A DNA stretch of 64,000 bases from a virus (taxonomy: Duplodnaviria > Caudoviricetes): IMG/VR virus record IMGVR_UViG_3300029305_005387; one strand, given 5' to 3'. Below the pieces are notes generated by a model. It worked only from the letters and a program-made list of their open reading frames with translations. It made no database searches and was not told the origin of the DNA. Numbering within the stretch: the stretch's first letter is position 1; the number at the start of each line of letters is the position of its first letter. Of this stretch, positions 4,330 through 26,677 are shown in pieces. The position numbers were made by a program, and so were the translations under genes.

Positions 4330-7300
4330 TTAATTTTCTCGATTACCCTTACGACGGATAGGTGCGAAAGTTCTATGACCATCTGCTTCTGCTTCATCAA
4401 TCATACGCTGTGCTGCTGGAGAAATATTCATATTTTGATTATCTTCTTCCACCTGTACTGATTCAGCAGTTTCAACCTTATTACTATCATTGGATACATT
4501 AGGAACTACTACAGCAGGACGTCCAGGTGTTCCGAGAAGTGCCTCAATAGCAGCCTGTTCTGCAGCATTCATCTGTTCATCTGAACTGGTAACAAATTCT
4601 TCGCCCATTTCTTCTTCACCATCCTCATCATCACTTTCCATTACTTGAACGAAATCTTTGACATAATCTTCATCATGTACAAGATCAGGCATTGATAGTG
4701 TACGTCTAAGATGTGAAATTGCTCCATTGCCGATCTCATCACAAATAACAGTATTGATGCGATTAAGAGTTTCTTCATCATCAACAAGTTCATAGTCTCC
4801 ATCATTATCGATAACAAAGATTCCCATGAGATAATAAACACCAATGATTGCTTCACCAGTCTCTTCATTCATATCAAGAATAACCATATGAATCTGCTCT
4901 TCTTCAATTTCATCATCGTTAGCAGCATTCAACCAATACTCCGGATTTTTAGTTCTGAACATAATGTCTGGAGTAAAGTGAATCAACCAATCCCATTTAC
5001 CGTTACGATCGTCAGCAAGACTAGGAAGCTTCTTAGATGGATCAATCTCAGCAATGTTTACATACAGTGGAATGTTAATATCACCAGATGATTCAGATGA
5101 AATGATCTTTACAATATCCATACCGTCATCATCAGGATAAATTTCTACTGTCAAACTCTGAGCTGGCATTGTATCTTCATCATCTTCTTCAGACTCAACT
5201 TCTTCATCGAATTCATTCACTGCATTTGTGATCATCTCTGCTGAAAATGCCATCTGATCATCTTCAATGGCCTGTTTCATGACAGATTCATCAATGATCG
5301 TAGCATTGTTATTTACTTTACCAGCCTCAGCTAACATTGCATGAATAGATGCTTCATCTGCATTTTCTACAGGATTCTGTTGAATTTCTTCCTGAAGACT
5401 TTCTTCCTGAAGACTTTCTCTTAATTCTGTAGAAATGTATTCTTCCTCAGGTAAACACCATGTTTCCAATCCTCTTGCAACGATTTCTGCACCTGATTTA
5501 GAAATACTAAACTTCAGGCACAAACGATCTACAAATGTAGGAAGCCATTCTCTCTGGATACCTCTGTAATCAGGGAACATCTGATCATACTTTTCCATAA
5601 TGGATTTACAATCATCTGTCTGATTCAGATTACGATTATTCCAGAATCGTTCAATGAATACAAGTGTTGGGAAATAGTCAGCTGTGTAAATATCATCCTT
5701 CTTCAATATCCATTCTGTATGAGTGCCTGGTTTCTTAGGATTATTATTGGGAACTTCTACAGTATCACAATCCACGAAAGCTACCAAAGAACGGAAAATT
5801 GCATTCTGACATGCTCTATAGAATTTTTCCGGTAACAGCTTCTTATCTTTACAATAAGATTTCACATCATCGAACATTTCTGTTTGATGAAGATACTCAC
5901 TCATCTTGTTGGATAATTTACTTGTTGCATAATGAAATTTATCAATGAAATTATCAGGAAATACGATTTCTTCTTCCACAGGTTCTTCAGCTTCCAATTC
6001 AGCTGTTACAACAGTAGCTTCGATAAATTCTTCTTCTACTTCTACAGGTTCTTCTTCATTTTCTTCTACCTGTACTGATGGTGCAACAGTTTCTGTCGTT
6101 ACAGGATTTTCCACAAATTCATCTTCATCACCTGAATCTTCTGCTAAATCTTCAATGGACATATCAAAATGGTTTTCAGCTGGAATATGTTCTTCAGACT
6201 TACCATCATAAATCACATGTTCTTCTTCCTGTGGAACTTGAACCACTTCAGCTTCAACTACAGTTGCTTCTACAACTGTTGCCTGGATTACGTCATCACC
6301 CATTGTTCCTGCAAATGCAAGTCCATCATCAGATTCTTTAACAGCAGGCTCCTGTTGATCTGCCATCCATACCTTTACATTGATTGCTCTCTGGTTATTC
6401 ATTCTTTCCTGCACCATTCTTTGTGCGATTGTTGCTCTAACATCTTTAGCCATGTTATTATCCTCCTTATTGTTAATATATAAATTTTCATTTATACCAT
6501 TCATAGTGAAAGTATCTGGACCAATATTGATTACTTCTTCTTTCGGTTTTTCAACTACTTTCTTTTTAGTGACAAGATAATTACTCTTATTTGGATCCAA
6601 TGTTCTTAATACATTAGATTCTGTCATTTCATATCCCTCATCACTAAGGTCGCCAATTTCATGACGATGCATATCATTACCAATTCTTCCTCGTATGTCC
6701 TCAAACTTATATTTCTTCCCACATGAGGAACAATATAATTCTGTGAAATCCTTATTAGGAACTAACATCGAATTATTTTTGCAGCTGTGACATAATAGAA
6801 GATCAGAACCTACGTCATAGACATATGCGAAGTCTAGACATACAGGTTCTTCAGAACCAACTCGTTGGCCCCAGTTGGCATAGTTATTTGGTGTGATACC
6901 AACATCACCAATCAGGTATACTGAGCTTAATGACTGAAGTATTTCTCGAATTTCATCAGCATACTTATACATTTCAGTATACGAGTTAAATGGTTGAATA
7001 TACTCAGCCACTAACAATGTACCAGAAGTTGAAACTTCATATATCTTTGTTACATGTGGATATAGACGTTTCGCCATCTTGAATTCTTTAAGGTTATCAA
7101 TCTTTCCATCGTGGTCCGTTGCAACCTTAATAACATAACCATCTAACCTGAAAGCATAACGATTTGTTCCAGGTCCTAAAAGAACTACATCACTGATGTG
7201 AAACTCTCTCAGCAGGTTAATGATTTCGGATTGTTTTTCTTTATTACTGATATCCCTTCGCCTACTGAGAAGTTCGAACTTCACACGTAATTCAAAAGGT

Positions 7301-24315: not shown

Positions 24316-24849
24316 ATGGCTAAGAAGTCTAAGAAAGTTGAAAAAGAGACTAGACGTCTCATGGAAAGTATTGCCGATCTTGTAAAGAAGAAAGGTGACA
24401 AATATAAGTTTAAATCTAAGAATAAGAAAGTGATCAAGAAAGTTAAGAAGACTTGTGTTCACTGGATTTATCGCAAAGGTAAGGAAGTACCTACAGTTAT
24501 TCAGGATCCTAATCGTTCCGGATATTGGAAATGTAAGATCTGCGGTGCATCTTTCCCTATTAAGCCTCTTCCAACAGAAAAAGATTCCAAACGTAATGGT
24601 TATGAAATCGCTGCAGATGATATGCTTGGTTTAGTTAATCAGATGCAGTTCTGGTCTGTAGAACTTGGTGGCGACGCAGATGACACTAAGATGTTCATCC
24701 GTTTAAAGGAAGACCTTCCTAGATTCGCAAAGGTTTCTAAGCAGATTCTGAAGAATGTTAACAAGCGTGATGAAATGGAAAATAACAGAGCTAGAACAGA
24801 TGCAATGAGCCAGTTCGATGCATACTCTGGTTTCGGTTATAGAAATTAA
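24316..24849 (+). CDS. Hypothetical protein with putative Zn site
   Basis: 177 aa, CxH...CxxC, RBS. Confidence 0.7.
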   Translation: MAKKSKKVEKETRRLMESIADLVKKKGDKYKFKSKNKKVIKKVKKTCVHWIYRKGKEVPTVIQDPNRSGYWKCKICGASFPIKPLPTEKDSKRNGYEIAADDMLGLVNQMQFWSVELGGDADDTKMFIRLKEDLPRFAKVSKQILKNVNKRDEMENNRARTDAMSQFDAYSGFGYRN

Positions 24850-24860
24850 TCAGTGTTAAA

Positions 24861-24898
24861 AATTATGGAAGGTGATATTATCATCACCTTCCATAATT
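24861..24898. terminator. Intrinsic terminator hairpin
   Basis: AATTATGGAAGGTGAT-N6-ATCACCTTCCATAATT. Confidence 0.7.
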
Positions 24899-24982
24899 AA
24901 AATAAAAACTTATAACGTCATATACATTTAATAGTAATAGGGTGAAATAATAAAAGATGAGAGAACATCAATTAAAATTTCA

Positions 24983-25097
24983 TTGAATTAATCTATCTGA
25001 TTCAAATTCTCAACTTAGTTGGTTATTCAAGATATCTAACAGCAGTCTGATAAACTGTGAATATAAATTGATAGATAATTTATATTGGTTGAGAATT
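24983..25097 (+). ncRNA. Unknown structured RNA with complementary 7-nt loops and an anticodon-like arm
   Basis: Hairpin loop ATCTATC (24991-24997) is complementary to hairpin loop GATAGAT (25070-25076); outer stem 25005-25014/25088-25097. Confidence 0.55.
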
Positions 25098-25107
25098 CCT
25101 ATATTAT

Positions 25108-25184
25108 GGGCCTTTAGCTCAGTTGGTTAGAGCATCCGGCTCATAACCGGACGGTCCCGGGTTCGAATCCCCGAAGGCCCACCA
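25108..25184 (+). tRNA. tRNA with CAT anticodon, Ile2-type
   Basis: Full cloverleaf GGGCCTT...AAGGCCC-A-CCA, anticodon loop CTCATAA; body resembles Firmicute tRNA-Ile2. Confidence 0.9.
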
Positions 25185-25193
25185 TTAATATCA

Positions 25194-25303
25194 AAGTCAC
25201 ATACAGCAACTAATAAAACAAAATTGCTTATAGCTTCATGAGTTCGAATCTCATACTATTAAACTTTAATAGTTATCCAAGTGGCCAAAGGAACAAGTGA
25301 CTT
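25194..25303 (+). ncRNA. Circularly permuted tRNA mimic, YrlA/Y-RNA-like
   Basis: Terminal stem AAGTCAC/GTGACTT; T arm ATGAG-TTCGAAT-CTCAT, closed acceptor hairpin, TA linker, D arm TCC-AAGTGGCCAAA-GGA. Confidence 0.65.
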
Positions 25304-25321
25304 ATGGATATATTAAAATAT

Positions 25322-25406
25322 GCCGGTATGATGGAATTGGCAGACATGACTGACTCAAAATCAGTTTCCATTAGGAGTAGCGGTTCGAGTCCGCTTACCG
25401 GCACCA
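25322..25406 (+). tRNA. tRNA-Leu(CAA)
   Basis: Cloverleaf with long variable arm, anticodon loop CTCAAAA, encoded CCA. Confidence 0.92.
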
Positions 25407-25409
25407 TAT

Positions 25410-25485
25410 GCGTCTTTAGCTCAGTAGGAAGAGCAATGCACTTTTAATGCATGGGTCTGGAGTTCGAGCCTCCAAAGACGCACCA
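25410..25485 (+). tRNA. tRNA-Lys(TTT)
   Basis: Cloverleaf, anticodon loop CTTTTAA, encoded CCA. Confidence 0.92.
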
Positions 25486-25487
25486 CT

Positions 25488-25731
25488 TCTCCGTATCGTG
25501 GGAGATTAATAAAATACACGAGCATCTTATATCAGTGAATAAGATGAGCCCAGTAAAATCTGACGTAATACCAAGCGGTATGAATGTAGTAAATAATCGG
25601 GGCTAATCTCTATAGTGATATAGAGCAGTTCATAAGAGAACGGGCTAAGATTAGCGACCTTAGTCGAATATTATTAAACCTTAGCACTCCTCGTGCGAGA
25701 GGCATCCTAGCCACAGGGAGTTGGAAGGATG
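25488..25731 (+). ncRNA. Unknown multi-hairpin RNA after the tRNA cluster
   Basis: GC-enriched ORF-free stretch with at least 7 stems, including a GUGA tetraloop and a long-range CACGAG/CTCGTG pair. Confidence 0.45.
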
Positions 25732-25749
25732 AAAAAAAAGAGGGCAATT

Positions 25750-25795
25750 AATAAATTACCCAGAGGAGCTATGATGCTCCTCTGGGTAATTTATT
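25750..25795. terminator. Terminator of the tRNA/ncRNA cluster
   Basis: AATAAATTACCCAGAGGAGC-N6-GCTCCTCTGGGTAATTTATT followed by T tract. Confidence 0.75.
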
Positions 25796-25819
25796 TTTAC
25801 TAAAAGGAGGGATTAATTT

Positions 25820-26677
25820 ATGTTTGAAGGATTCAATAATCATGAAAAGAAAACAATCGCAGATGTTATTATGTGGACAATTCATCACGATGTAATTTCA
25901 TCCTCATTAATGATGAAAACTTTTCAAATTGAAAAATTCGTAGCACAAAGCACATTGGAGATGTTGTCTAAGATTGAAGTAATTGAAGAAAATGATCAAC
26001 AACCGGAACTGTATTATGTATTAATTAATGAGGTAGAAAACTTACTTCCAGAAGTTTTAGATCTTCTCATTAATTGTGATTATAGTTTATCTGATATTAA
26101 GAAAGCCGTACAAGGTGTACCTAAAGAAGAAAAATATGTTTCATCAAATATCTTATCTGATAAGAGTAGAGATTGGATACCATTCAATGAAACTAAACCA
26201 AAACTAAATACACCTATACTGATTCGTTTTACGGATGAATCTACCGTATTAATGGAATCCAAAACAGAAATCGTTTATTCTGAGGATTTAAAAATTGCTA
26301 TGTGGGATGGTATAGAATTCCATATTATGGCCCCATATCCTAAGTATGATTTTAGTCCATTATCAAATAAAGAATATTTAAATGATGGAGTATTTGTAAC
26401 ACACTGGTCCAATATTAATAGGAAAGATTTGGAAGGATGGCAGACTCGTTTCAATCCTATCAATAAATATAAACATTTGGAATTATCTGTTTCTAGAGAA
26501 CAAGAGGAGGAGGTTTATAAGGCATTAATTCTTGCAGCCGCCTGCATCATGCGAACTGTGAATGATTGTGCTGCTAATGATCCTACTAGAGATAAACTAG
26601 TAAAGGCTCATTCAGTTATGTGTGATCTTCAAAGTGCAATTGACTATGGTATAATTCAAAATTCGGAAGGAGAATAA
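25820..26677 (+). CDS. Hypothetical protein
   Basis: 285-aa ORF with AGGAGG RBS. Confidence 0.65.
   Translation: MFEGFNNHEKKTIADVIMWTIHHDVISSSLMMKTFQIEKFVAQSTLEMLSKIEVIEENDQQPELYYVLINEVENLLPEVLDLLINCDYSLSDIKKAVQGVPKEEKYVSSNILSDKSRDWIPFNETKPKLNTPILIRFTDESTVLMESKTEIVYSEDLKIAMWDGIEFHIMAPYPKYDFSPLSNKEYLNDGVFVTHWSNINRKDLEGWQTRFNPINKYKHLELSVSREQEEEVYKALILAAACIMRTVNDCAANDPTRDKLVKAHSVMCDLQSAIDYGIIQNSEGE

What the first reader, a model, noticed from the sequence alone, without database searches (positions are those of the whole stretch)
24983..25097. Unannotated kissing-loop RNA with an Ile(GAU) anticodon-like arm ahead of the tRNA cluster
Seen: hairpin TTGAATTA-[ATCTATC]-TGATTCAA (24983-25005) and hairpin AATATAAATT-[GATAGAT]-AATTTATATT (25060-25086) have perfectly complementary 7-nt loops. 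The second sits in a junction closed by AATTCTCAAC/GTTGAGAATT, which also holds GCAGT-CTGATAA-ACTGT, a 5-bp stem with a canonical tRNA-Ile anticodon loop. There is no T-loop and no CCA. Inference: a tertiary-folded RNA, possibly an anticodon-presenting decoy for anticodon nucleases or modification enzymes.
Basis: partly seen in the sequence, partly recalled or inferred. Interest (0 to 1): 0.7.

Follow-up and report, generated by a model that had tools for sequence, protein, structure and literature searches.

The report
Handle-less phage RNA presenting Ile anticodon arm
At the head of a gut jumbo phage's tRNA cassette lies a tRNA-sized folded RNA that is not a tRNA but carries an exact isoleucine anticodon arm, and that arm recurs in a family of tRNA-mimicking RNAs encoded next to Ro60-like RNA-binding protein genes, so it is probably a bait or decoy in the phage-host fight over tRNAs.

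Summary
An 8-bp hairpin (24983-25005) precedes a cloverleaf (25005-25097) with an 11-bp closing stem and three arms. The middle arm is a 5-bp stem with loop CUGAUAA. The loops of the first hairpin and the third arm are perfectly complementary over 7 nt. This is the only such pair in the 64 kb, and 0 of 100 shuffles produced one.

It is not a tRNA (ARAGORN and Rfam find nothing; no T-loop) and matches no Rfam family.

The anticodon arm is homologous to other RNAs. The same 20-24 nt occur in RNAs of other phages and of one bacterial operon (WYL regulators, two RNAs, a Ro60-like DUF2828 protein, RtcB). Those RNAs share a clamp helix plus ACAGCAA "handle" in a YrlA-like layout. In four lineages the anticodon stem covaries while CUGAUAA stays fixed. 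26 of 87 handle RNAs display such CUNNNAA arms, against 0.2 expected.

This element lacks the handle. It sits one tRNA upstream of an anticodon-less tRNA-body mimic (25194-25303).

Best reading (about 45%): a functional anticodon-arm presenter derived from this family. A relic is about 30%. The kissing loops are real, but their conservation could not be tested and they look sterically awkward.

The scan had already noted this stretch, the neighbouring mimic and the handle-RNA array in the same genome.

The parts
24983..25005 (+). Hairpin 0: 8-bp stem (one G-U) with the 7-nt loop ATCTATC at 24991-24997
   Evidence: Sequence. Predicted by RNAfold with pair probabilities of 0.9-0.99 for seven of the eight pairs; the outermost pair is 0.36.
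25005..25015 (+). 5' strand of the closing (acceptor-like) helix. It pairs with 25087-25097.
   Evidence: 10 Watson-Crick pairs plus one U-G. Pair probability is 0.91-1.0 except for the outermost pair, 0.49.
25018..25040 (+). Arm 1, in the D-arm position: a 9-bp hairpin with a 1x1 internal loop. It keeps a TTGGTTA D-loop-like string but cannot form a normal D arm.
   Evidence: alignment to relatives' D arms
25042..25058 (+). Anticodon-like arm: a 5-bp stem (first pair G-U) with loop CUGAUAA (U33, GAU, A37, A38)
   Evidence: The exact 20-mer at 25040-25059 is also found in L007, L008, L012 and L010. The identity with L008 extends to 24 nt, window 25040-25063. The stem covaries in L017, L066 and L102.
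25060..25086 (+). Arm 3, in the T-arm position: a 10-bp A/T stem with loop GATAGAT at 25070-25076, the exact complement of the hairpin 0 loop. There is no T-loop.
25087..25099 (+). 3' strand of the closing helix (25087-25097) followed by CC. tRNA-Met starts 8 nt later.
25194..25303 (+). Companion element E2: a handle (7-bp clamp plus ACAGCAA) carrying a T arm, a sealed acceptor hairpin and a D arm, but no anticodon arm. It has a YrlA-like layout.
   Evidence: Earlier scan note e1-5459846 reached the same reading.
24850..25819 (+). The ~970-nt non-coding cassette, in order: a 15-bp hairpin (24862-24897), this element, tRNA-Met, E2, tRNA-Leu, tRNA-Lys, a ~260-nt unassigned stretch, and a terminator-like hairpin. 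Relatives with the same flanking gene lack the cassette.

Best explanation
The element is a small RNA module, about 115 nt, made from the phage's tRNA-cassette transcript. It folds into a hairpin plus a tRNA-sized four-way junction, and the one strictly preserved feature is a tRNA-Ile(GAU) anticodon stem-loop.

It is a handle-less offshoot of a family of Y-RNA-like tRNA mimics. These are partner RNAs of Ro60-like DUF2828/DUF7788 proteins and are often encoded with RtcB or inside phage tRNA arrays. Many members display anticodon arms.

I propose that it presents the Ile-GAU anticodon loop as a bait, decoy or substrate for a factor that recognises or cuts that loop, such as a host anticodon nuclease or a modification or repair enzyme. 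I also propose that it works alongside the adjacent anticodon-less tRNA-body mimic E2 and the phage's Ro60-like protein. In related phages the anticodon arm and the tRNA body are joined in one RNA. In a bacterial operon and in phage L008 they are split between neighbouring RNAs, as here.

Shown: the fold, the homology of the arm, covariation of the arm in relatives, and enrichment of such arms in the family.

Inferred: transcription and processing, the partner, the decoy or bait role, and any role of the kissing loops (possibly compaction or dimerisation).
For: 1. The fold is stable and specific.

2. The 20-mer spanning the arm is identical in three other phage contigs (L007, L008, L012) and in L010. 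L010 is a bacterial-looking contig with two WYL-domain genes, two handle RNAs, a DUF2828/DUF7788 gene and RtcB. Identity with L008 runs to 24 nt while the flanks are barely alignable.

3. In L008, L007, L012, L017, L066 and L102 the arm is part of a handle RNA that holds a complete, circularly permuted tRNA-like domain. RNAalifold predicts 28 pairs, 13 of them with compensatory changes. There are four different anticodon stems, and the CUGAUAA loop is invariant.

4. 26 of 87 distinct handle RNAs carry a 5-bp hairpin with a CUNNNAA loop, against 0.2 expected (maximum 3) in 300 shuffles. The anticodons counted are UUU x9 and GAU x7 (four independent stems), plus GUA and GUU.

5. The associated protein folds like Ro60 (TROVE plus vWA). 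Foldseek's top hits are Ro60 structures, including a phage Ro60, with E = 3.5e-7. L008 and L007 encode it beside their tRNA arrays.

6. The layout has a parallel. L008 has [handle + UUU arm, 6797-6863], tRNA-Pro, [handle + T/acceptor/D body without an anticodon arm, 6951-7061]. The window has [this element], tRNA-Met, [E2].

7. Published background. YrlA Y RNAs have this inside-out tRNA layout, are bound by Ro60, and are encoded beside rtcB in the Salmonella repair operon, and M. smegmatis YrlA is cut by RNase P and receives CCA (PMC4201824). A Ro60-like protein of phage Bas63, encoded next to its tRNA genes, counters a host defence (PMC11482910).
Against: The element lacks the family's defining handle. 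The pattern scans pick up E2 but not this element, and the covariance model of the permuted tRNA-Ile RNAs gives only 16.8 bits (E about 0.007 in 3 kb), mostly from the arm.

No homologue shares its overall architecture or its complementary loops. The strain-level copies are identical, so there is no evidence of selection on the whole fold.

The 64-kb window contains no Ro60-like or RtcB gene. That such a gene lies just beyond the window comes only from earlier scan notes, which I could not test.

No expression data were available.

No complementarity between this element and E2 exceeds that of shuffles.

The identity of the arm could reflect a recent patch transfer rather than selection.
Confidence: 0.45

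Rival explanations
1. It is a non-functional relic: a decaying copy of a tRNA-Ile(GAU) gene, or of a permuted tRNA-Ile Y-like RNA, carried along in an inserted tRNA cassette. A/T-rich palindromes have grown in place of the T arm and D arm.
For: It fails every tRNA test and lacks the handle. The D-arm position keeps only a TTGGTTA string. A T-loop-like string (GATTCAAATTC, around 24999-25009) and a degenerate handle-like string (around 24954-24972) lie upstream, as expected for a decayed permuted copy, but the match is weak. The whole cassette is a lineage-specific insertion. E2 shows that the cassette holds a second, better preserved family member.
Against: Neutral decay should not leave 24 of 24 nt of the arm intact while the rest becomes unalignable. 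It should not produce a perfect 10-bp closing helix, a 10-bp arm and an 8-bp hairpin with exactly complementary loops. The fold is more stable than 199 of 200 shuffles.
Confidence: 0.3
2. It is a cis-acting leader of the tRNA operon. A stable 5' structure would protect the polycistronic precursor from 5'-end-dependent decay, or would position RNase P or other processing enzymes for the first tRNA. On this reading the anticodon-like arm is an inherited but incidental feature.
For: It is the first element after the upstream gene's 15-bp hairpin and ends 8 nt before tRNA-Met. Spacer elements closed by helices sit between most tRNAs in the related arrays.
Against: A stabilising leader has no need for an exact anticodon loop, yet that arm is the only part conserved with distant relatives. 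The transcription start is unknown: no convincing promoter was found, and the number of promoter-like sites equals the shuffle expectation.
Confidence: 0.12
3. It is a DNA-level element, such as an operator pair, a recombination site or a promoter region. The two palindromes centred on GATAGAT and its complement would be protein-binding sites about 79 bp apart.
For: The two complementary loops each sit at the centre of a palindrome. Weak promoter-like hexamers overlap arm 3.
Against: Promoter-like hits are no more frequent than in shuffles. This reading does not explain the nested closing helix or the conserved anticodon arm, which elsewhere is part of covarying RNA structures.
Confidence: 0.05
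4. It is a real, if bizarre, decoding tRNA-Ile(GAU).
For: It has a 7-bp acceptor-like helix (extended to 10-11 bp), a TA at positions 8-9, a canonical anticodon arm and a CC after the helix. ARAGORN in its permissive mitochondrial mode calls 25013-25091 as Ile(gat).
Against: It has no T-loop, no D-loop/T-loop elbow partners, and a 10-bp arm where the 5-bp T stem should be. ARAGORN in bacterial mode makes no call at default or 90% threshold; at 80% it gives only a mis-framed Ile call (25020-25112) that overlaps tRNA-Met. Rfam's tRNA model gives no hit even at E up to 10. From established knowledge, EF-Tu and the ribosome need the 12-bp acceptor/T stack; here the stack would be about 20 bp.
Confidence: 0.03

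Closest known systems
YrlA / YrlB bacterial and phage Y RNAs, partners of Ro60 (Rsr), in rsr-yrlBA-rtcBA-type loci (Chen et al. 2014, PMC4201824)
   Same: These are small RNAs with tRNA-derived modules, encoded with a Ro60-type protein and RtcB or among tRNAs. A T-arm-bearing RNA and a second, smaller RNA often lie side by side. D. radiodurans Yrn1 can even be drawn with an anticodon-like arm. The relatives that share this element's arm have the YrlA layout: closing stem, 5' single-stranded motif, V, T, sealed acceptor and D.
   Different: This element has no closing-stem handle. It has neither YrlA's GNCGAAN0-1G motif nor the ACAGCAA motif of the DUF2828-linked family. It has no T arm and no sealed acceptor hairpin. 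Its arms are in normal tRNA order. Rfam finds nothing here.
The ACAGCAA-handle RNAs encoded with DUF2828/DUF7788 Ro60-like proteins. The family is apparently unpublished; this scan noted it in the same genome (e1-5459846, e1-5459879, e1-5459882).
   Same: The anticodon arm is identical over 20-24 nt. Display of CUNNNAA arms is common in the family. The element sits in a tRNA array beside a bona fide member, E2.
   Different: The clamp helix plus ACAGCAA handle is missing. The scaffold is a cloverleaf closed by its own 10-11-bp helix, preceded by an extra hairpin.
tRNA-Ile(GAU)
   Same: A 5-bp anticodon stem with loop C32 U33 G34 A35 U36 A37 A38; an acceptor-like helix; TA at positions 8-9.
   Different: There is no T-loop and no canonical D arm, and the 'T arm' is 10 bp. 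tRNA finders do not call it. No tRNA-Ile gene with this anticodon stem turned up among the exact matches in GTDB representative genomes.
Circularly permuted tRNA genes (Cyanidioschyzon merolae and other algae, Thermofilum); cited from my own knowledge
   Same: The closest relatives of the arm (L008 3832-3958 and others) have the 3' half (T arm, 3' acceptor strand) upstream of the 5' half (5' acceptor strand, D arm, anticodon arm).
   Different: Those relatives are closed by a protein-binding-type handle rather than a splicing motif. This element itself is not permuted.
Loop-loop kissing complexes (ColE1 RNA I/RNA II, HIV-1 DIS/TAR-TAR*); cited from my own knowledge
   Same: Two hairpins with fully complementary 7-nt loops.
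   Different: Here both hairpins lie in one molecule and are tied together by a 10-bp helix with linkers of 0-1 nt. There is no conservation or experimental evidence.

Membership tests
tRNA (Rfam RF00005 / ARAGORN) | Scores above threshold with a tRNA covariance model or tRNA finder | tested here: not met
   ARAGORN at default settings finds only the Met, Leu and Lys tRNAs. Rfam's tRNA model gives no hit at this element even at E up to 10. ARAGORN calls it only in mitochondrial mode, or at 80% threshold with wrong borders.
tRNA (Rfam RF00005 / ARAGORN) | T arm: a 5-bp stem with a T-Psi-C-R-A loop that pairs with G18/G19 of the D loop | tested here: not met
   Arm 3 has a 10-bp stem and the loop GATAGAT. 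Arm 1 is a closed 9-bp hairpin.
tRNA (Rfam RF00005 / ARAGORN) | Anticodon arm: a 5-bp stem and a 7-nt loop with U33 and a purine at position 37 | tested here: met
   25042-25058, loop CUGAUAA
YrlA (Ro60-bound tRNA-like Y RNA; Chen et al. 2014) | Closing stem with the 5' GNCGAAN0-1G motif | tested here: not met
   By direct reading, no such motif occurs in 24950-25100. Motif definition from PMC4201824.
YrlA (Ro60-bound tRNA-like Y RNA; Chen et al. 2014) | T arm, sealed acceptor-like hairpin and D arm, in that order | tested here: not met
   This order is absent from the element but present in the neighbour E2. Rfam gives no Y-RNA family hit in 24500-26000.
ACAGCAA-handle RNAs of DUF2828/DUF7788 (Ro60-like) proteins | A 7-bp covarying clamp helix, with ACAGCAA a few nt after its 5' strand and G/A after its 3' strand | tested here: not met
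   Pattern scans find E2 (25194-25303) but not this element. There is only a degenerate look-alike string upstream (around 24954-24972), and it has no 3' partner.
ACAGCAA-handle RNAs of DUF2828/DUF7788 (Ro60-like) proteins | Cargo module homologous to that of other members | tested here: met
   The anticodon arm is identical over 20-24 nt to members in L007, L008, L012 and L010. The covariance model built from members hits the element at 16.8 bits, E about 0.007.
ACAGCAA-handle RNAs of DUF2828/DUF7788 (Ro60-like) proteins | A Ro60-like gene in the same genome or neighbourhood | not testable with these tools
   tblastn finds none in the 64-kb window. Earlier scan notes place one just beyond the window's end; I could not read that DNA.
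Intramolecular kissing-loop RNA | Loop-loop complementarity conserved or covarying in homologues | tested here: inconclusive
   The complementarity is exact and unique in the window. However, the only other copies are 100% identical strains, and the distant relatives lack both loops.

The most novel reading that the evidence does not exclude
The phage has split a tRNA mimic into two RNAs. This element supplies the Ile-GAU anticodon arm on a self-closed scaffold, with a loop-loop contact replacing the lost D/T elbow. E2 supplies the anticodon-less tRNA body on a Ro60-like handle. Together with the Ro60-like ring they would form a modular bait or sensor that intercepts a host nuclease or modifier specific for the tRNA-Ile anticodon loop. 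More generally, the DUF2828-linked handle RNAs would be a library of anticodon-loop baits (Lys-UUU, Ile-GAU, Tyr-GUA, Asn-GUU) used in tRNA-centred phage-host conflict.
Probability: 0.12. Interest if true: 0.8.

Novelty: new variant of a known kind. Interest (0 to 1): 0.55.

Why it matters
tRNA cleavage by host anticodon nucleases, and the phage counter-measures to it (own tRNAs, RNA ligases), are a very active field. Ro60/Y-RNA particles are known in bacteria and phages, but the purpose of their tRNA-like parts is unknown.

This element, with its relatives, shows that a large and mostly viral set of Ro60-like partner RNAs repeatedly displays intact anticodon stem-loops of particular identities. 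It also shows that the display module can exist apart from the protein-binding handle.

If these are baits or decoys, that would give the tRNA mimicry of Y-like RNAs a concrete function. It would also point to which tRNAs are under attack in gut and rumen hosts. The element on its own is a single-lineage variant with no expression data, so its weight is moderate.

Tried and rejected
- **Rfam.** cmscan at E up to 10 on 24500-26000 hits only the three tRNAs. L010 and L012 likewise give no Y-RNA family hit.
- **Cultured-phage database.** The region matches only through its tRNAs. The L008 permuted RNA has no match at all.
- **Relatives via the flanking genes.** Eight contigs with homologues of the upstream gene (60-78% identity: L001-L005, L163-L165) have no tRNA cassette at this site; L001, L002 and L163-L165 were read directly, L003-L005 were only checked for tRNA genes. 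The downstream gene has no relative in IMG/VR. One look-up was not on record.
- **Exact-protein look-ups.** These gave 13 strain-level contigs, six of which span the whole element. All copies of the element are 100% identical, so there is no covariation signal.
- **Metagenome scan with the 20-mer.** Only L010 and L012 were new.
- **GTDB genome scan with the 18-mer arm.** There were 20 hits, all coding or chance (for example GTPase P-loop codons). None was a tRNA-Ile or a handle RNA. L136 was checked and rejected.
- **Reading the element as a decayed permuted copy** (T-loop-like string upstream, short acceptor-like hairpin). The proposed T stem and acceptor hairpin would need to use the same bases, so this stays only a possibility.
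- **Pairing between this element and E2.** It is no better than with shuffled E2.
- **Loop complements elsewhere in the cassette.** The hairpin 0 and arm 3 loops have no complement other than each other, and the anticodon loop's complement has only one 6-mer match, at 25530.
- **A promoter for the cassette.** Promoter-like sites equal the shuffle expectation.
- **DUF2828 or RtcB in the window.** tblastn finds none.

Full report
**1. Observation**

- Hairpin 0 spans 24983-25005: an 8-bp stem with one G-U and the loop ATCTATC.
- It abuts a helix pairing 25005-25015 with 25087-25097. That helix encloses three hairpins.
- Arm 1 is 25018-25040.
- The anticodon-like arm is 25042-25058, a 5-bp stem with loop CUGAUAA.
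- Arm 3 is 25060-25086, a 10-bp stem with loop GATAGAT.
- CC follows at 25098-25099. tRNA-Met begins at 25108.

RNAfold returns this structure: -28.5 kcal/mol, z = -2.98, 1 of 200 shuffles as stable. Pair probabilities for hairpin 0, the closing helix and arm 3 are mostly 0.9 or higher, apart from their terminal pairs.

The two 7-nt loops are exact reverse complements. I scanned the whole window for neighbouring hairpins with fully complementary 7-nt loops. This is the only pair, and 0 of 100 dinucleotide-preserving shuffles of the 64 kb produced any. No ORF overlaps the element.

**2. Context**

The window is A/T-rich (about 31% G+C). It has jumbo-phage-type genes upstream: topoisomerase II and NAD-dependent ligase.

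The element opens a ~970-nt non-coding cassette (24850-25819). In order it holds a 15-bp hairpin, this element, tRNA-Met, a second structured element E2 (25194-25303), tRNA-Leu, tRNA-Lys, about 260 nt of unassigned sequence, and a terminator-like hairpin.

Relatives carry homologues of the upstream 177-aa gene at 60-78% identity. Where their sequence or gene layout was read (L001, L002, L163-L165), the next gene follows within about 50-90 nt; L003-L005 were only shown to hold no tRNA gene. None has a tRNA cassette. The cassette is therefore a lineage-specific insertion.

Thirteen strain-level contigs from other samples overlap the cassette, and six of them span the whole element. All copies of the element are 100% identical. 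It is stably present, but the strains give no covariation information.

**3. What it is not**

It is not a tRNA. ARAGORN at default settings and Rfam's tRNA model (E up to 10) ignore it. Only ARAGORN's permissive mitochondrial mode calls 25013-25091 as Ile(gat). It has no T-loop, no usable D arm, and a 10-bp arm where a 5-bp T stem belongs. No Rfam family matches.

**4. Relatives of the anticodon arm**

The 20-mer spanning the arm occurs exactly in phage contigs L007, L008 and L012 and in metagenome contig L010. The identity with L008 runs to 24 nt, although the flanks barely align.

In L008 (3832-3958) the arm is part of a larger RNA with this order:
- a 7-bp clamp helix;
- ACAGCAA a few nt after the clamp's 5' strand;
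- a small hairpin;
- a canonical T arm;
- a 7-bp acceptor helix sealed by a 4-nt loop;
- TA;
- a D arm;
- the anticodon arm;
- a small hairpin;
- the 3' strand of the clamp.

This is a complete tRNA-like domain in circularly permuted order, set on a "handle".

L010 looks bacterial. Two WYL-domain genes are followed by two adjacent handle RNAs, one with a T arm and one with this same anticodon arm. Then come a DUF2828/DUF7788 protein and RtcB.

L008 and L007 encode a homologue of that protein, 42-43% identical, beside their tRNA arrays. An AlphaFold model of it (pLDDT 68) matches Ro60/TROVE structures over its full length, including a phage Ro60, with E = 3.5e-7.

The layout is that of YrlA: closing stem, 5' single-stranded motif, V, T, sealed acceptor and D. 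YrlA is the Ro60-bound, tRNA-like Y RNA found in bacteria and phages (in Salmonella encoded beside rtcB), and M. smegmatis YrlA is cut by RNase P and receives CCA (PMC4201824). Here, however, the motif is ACAGCAA rather than GNCGAAN0-1G.

Earlier notes of this scan reached the same reading for E2. They also describe a five-RNA handle array in front of a Ro60-like gene just beyond this window. I confirmed the E2 reading and the Ro60-like fold independently. I could not read the DNA beyond the window.

**5. The arm is under selection in the family**

More permuted tRNA-Ile handle RNAs turned up in L017, L066 and L102. Six sequences were aligned. RNAalifold predicts 28 pairs across the clamp, T arm, acceptor hairpin, D arm and anticodon arm, and 13 of them show compensatory changes. 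The anticodon stem has four different sequences. The loop CUGAUAA never changes.

I then surveyed 87 distinct handle RNAs collected from the loci. Twenty-six carry a 5-bp hairpin with a CUNNNAA loop, against 0.2 expected (maximum 3) in 300 dinucleotide shuffles. UUU (9) and GAU (7, four independent stems) are the most frequent, followed by GUA and GUU. Many are short RNAs consisting of the handle plus an anticodon arm only.

Anticodon-arm display is therefore a recurrent, non-random cargo of these RNAs.

No genuine tRNA-Ile in the GTDB representative genomes has this particular stem. The arm is not a copy of a known host tRNA.

**6. How this element relates to the family**

It has the arm but not the handle. 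The pattern scans pick up E2 only. A covariance model built from the permuted tRNA-Ile RNAs scores E2 at 24.4 bits and this element at 16.8 bits (E about 0.007 in 3 kb), mostly through the arm.

Upstream of the arm, the acceptor-like 5' strand, the TA and a TTGGTTA D-loop string align loosely with the relatives. The hairpin after the arm stands where the relatives have a small A/T hairpin.

Two origins fit:
- a normal-order tRNA-Ile whose T arm was replaced;
- a remodelled copy of a permuted handle RNA. A T-loop-like string and a degenerate handle-like string lie upstream, but the pieces overlap awkwardly.

I cannot decide between them.

E2 is the exact counterpart: handle, T arm, sealed acceptor and D arm, but no anticodon arm. 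The order [anticodon-arm RNA], one tRNA, [anticodon-less body RNA] also occurs in L008: 6797-6863, tRNA-Pro, 6951-7061. In L010 the two kinds of RNA are adjacent. That pattern favours modules that work together over random decay. I found no base-pairing between this element and E2 beyond what shuffles give.

**7. The kissing loops**

They are real and statistically rare. But the relatives have a 3-nt loop at the arm-3 position and no hairpin 0, and the strain copies are identical.

A rough geometric argument follows; it is my inference, not a computation. A coaxial kissing rod of 8 + 7 + 10 bp would have to be bridged by the 10-bp closing helix through linkers of 0-1 nt. That is strained. A partial contact or head-to-tail dimerisation seems more plausible.

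Within the cassette, each loop's only complement is the other loop.

**8. Mechanism and rivals**

My best reading (about 0.45): a processed, functional RNA that presents an Ile-GAU anticodon loop as bait, decoy or substrate. It would act in the same tRNA-surveillance or anti-defence context as E2 and the phage's Ro60-like protein. A Ro60-like protein of phage Bas63, encoded next to its tRNA genes, was found to counter a host defence system (PMC11482910). Jumbo phages are known to combine tRNAs, RNA ligases and occasionally ROT/TROVE proteins (PMC7824862).

The rivals are a relic (0.30), a cis-acting leader (0.12), a DNA-level site (0.05) and a true tRNA (0.03).

**9. Novelty**

Y RNAs that mimic tRNA are known. 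I found no paper describing the ACAGCAA-handle family linked to DUF2828, and earlier notes of this scan report the same. Within that setting, this element is a new, handle-less variant seen in one phage lineage. Its main value is the lead it gives to anticodon-arm display as a general feature of the family.

Noticed in passing
window 25194-25303: E2: a handle RNA (7-bp clamp plus ACAGCAA) with a T arm, a sealed 7-bp acceptor hairpin and a type-II-like D arm, but no anticodon arm. It is YrlA-like. The scan has already followed it up (e1-5459846).
   Followed up: partly
window 25135-25136 and 25150-25151 (tRNA-Met anticodon stem), versus L157: One strain contig (L157) carries a double compensatory change in the tRNA-Met anticodon stem (TC to GA paired with GA to TC) plus one change at 25106. 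Two other strains have a 1-nt deletion at 25173/25174 in the T-arm region.
   Followed up: no
window 25108-25184: The CAU tRNA called Met resembles T5-like phage genes that records annotate variously as tRNA-Met or tRNA-Ile2. If it is a lysidine-type tRNA-Ile2, the cassette would open with two Ile-related elements.
   Followed up: no
window 25486-25745: About 260 nt of G+C-richer non-coding sequence lie between tRNA-Lys and a terminator-like hairpin (about 25747-25795). There is no Rfam hit. Another finding has also flagged it.
   Followed up: no
L008 3967-4103 and L007 about 9262 downward (minus strand): A tRNA (acceptor and T arm intact) is interrupted after the D arm by about 60 nt in L008. 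In L007 the insertion is much longer and contains an HNH-type ORF, so it is a likely intron with a homing endonuclease. L012 has the uninterrupted tRNA-Leu(UAA) at the same place.
   Followed up: no
L017 7534-7603 and 14344-14683: The 247-kb contig with a DUF2828 gene also has a CUA-anticodon tRNA (called Pyl by ARAGORN, so a possible amber suppressor) and a tmRNA-like call. This hints at stop-codon reassignment in that phage.
   Followed up: no
L010 745-4698 (minus strand): A bacterial-looking operon: two WYL-domain proteins, two handle RNAs (one with a T arm, one with the Ile-GAU arm), a Ro60-like DUF2828/DUF7788 protein and RtcB. It is an analogue of the Salmonella rsr-yrlBA-rtcBA repair operon, with WYL regulators instead of RtcR.
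   Followed up: partly
L008 3201-3277 and 3392-3470: The phage tRNA-Asp and tRNA-Ala have non-canonical T loops (for example GGGAGCAAAGCCC instead of GGTTCGAATCC).
   Followed up: no
L017 15619-15731: A handle RNA whose cargo is a normal-order D arm, anticodon arm (GUA) and T arm without an acceptor stem. ARAGORN calls its inner part tRNA-Tyr. Some 'tRNA' calls in phage arrays may in fact be handle RNAs.
   Followed up: no
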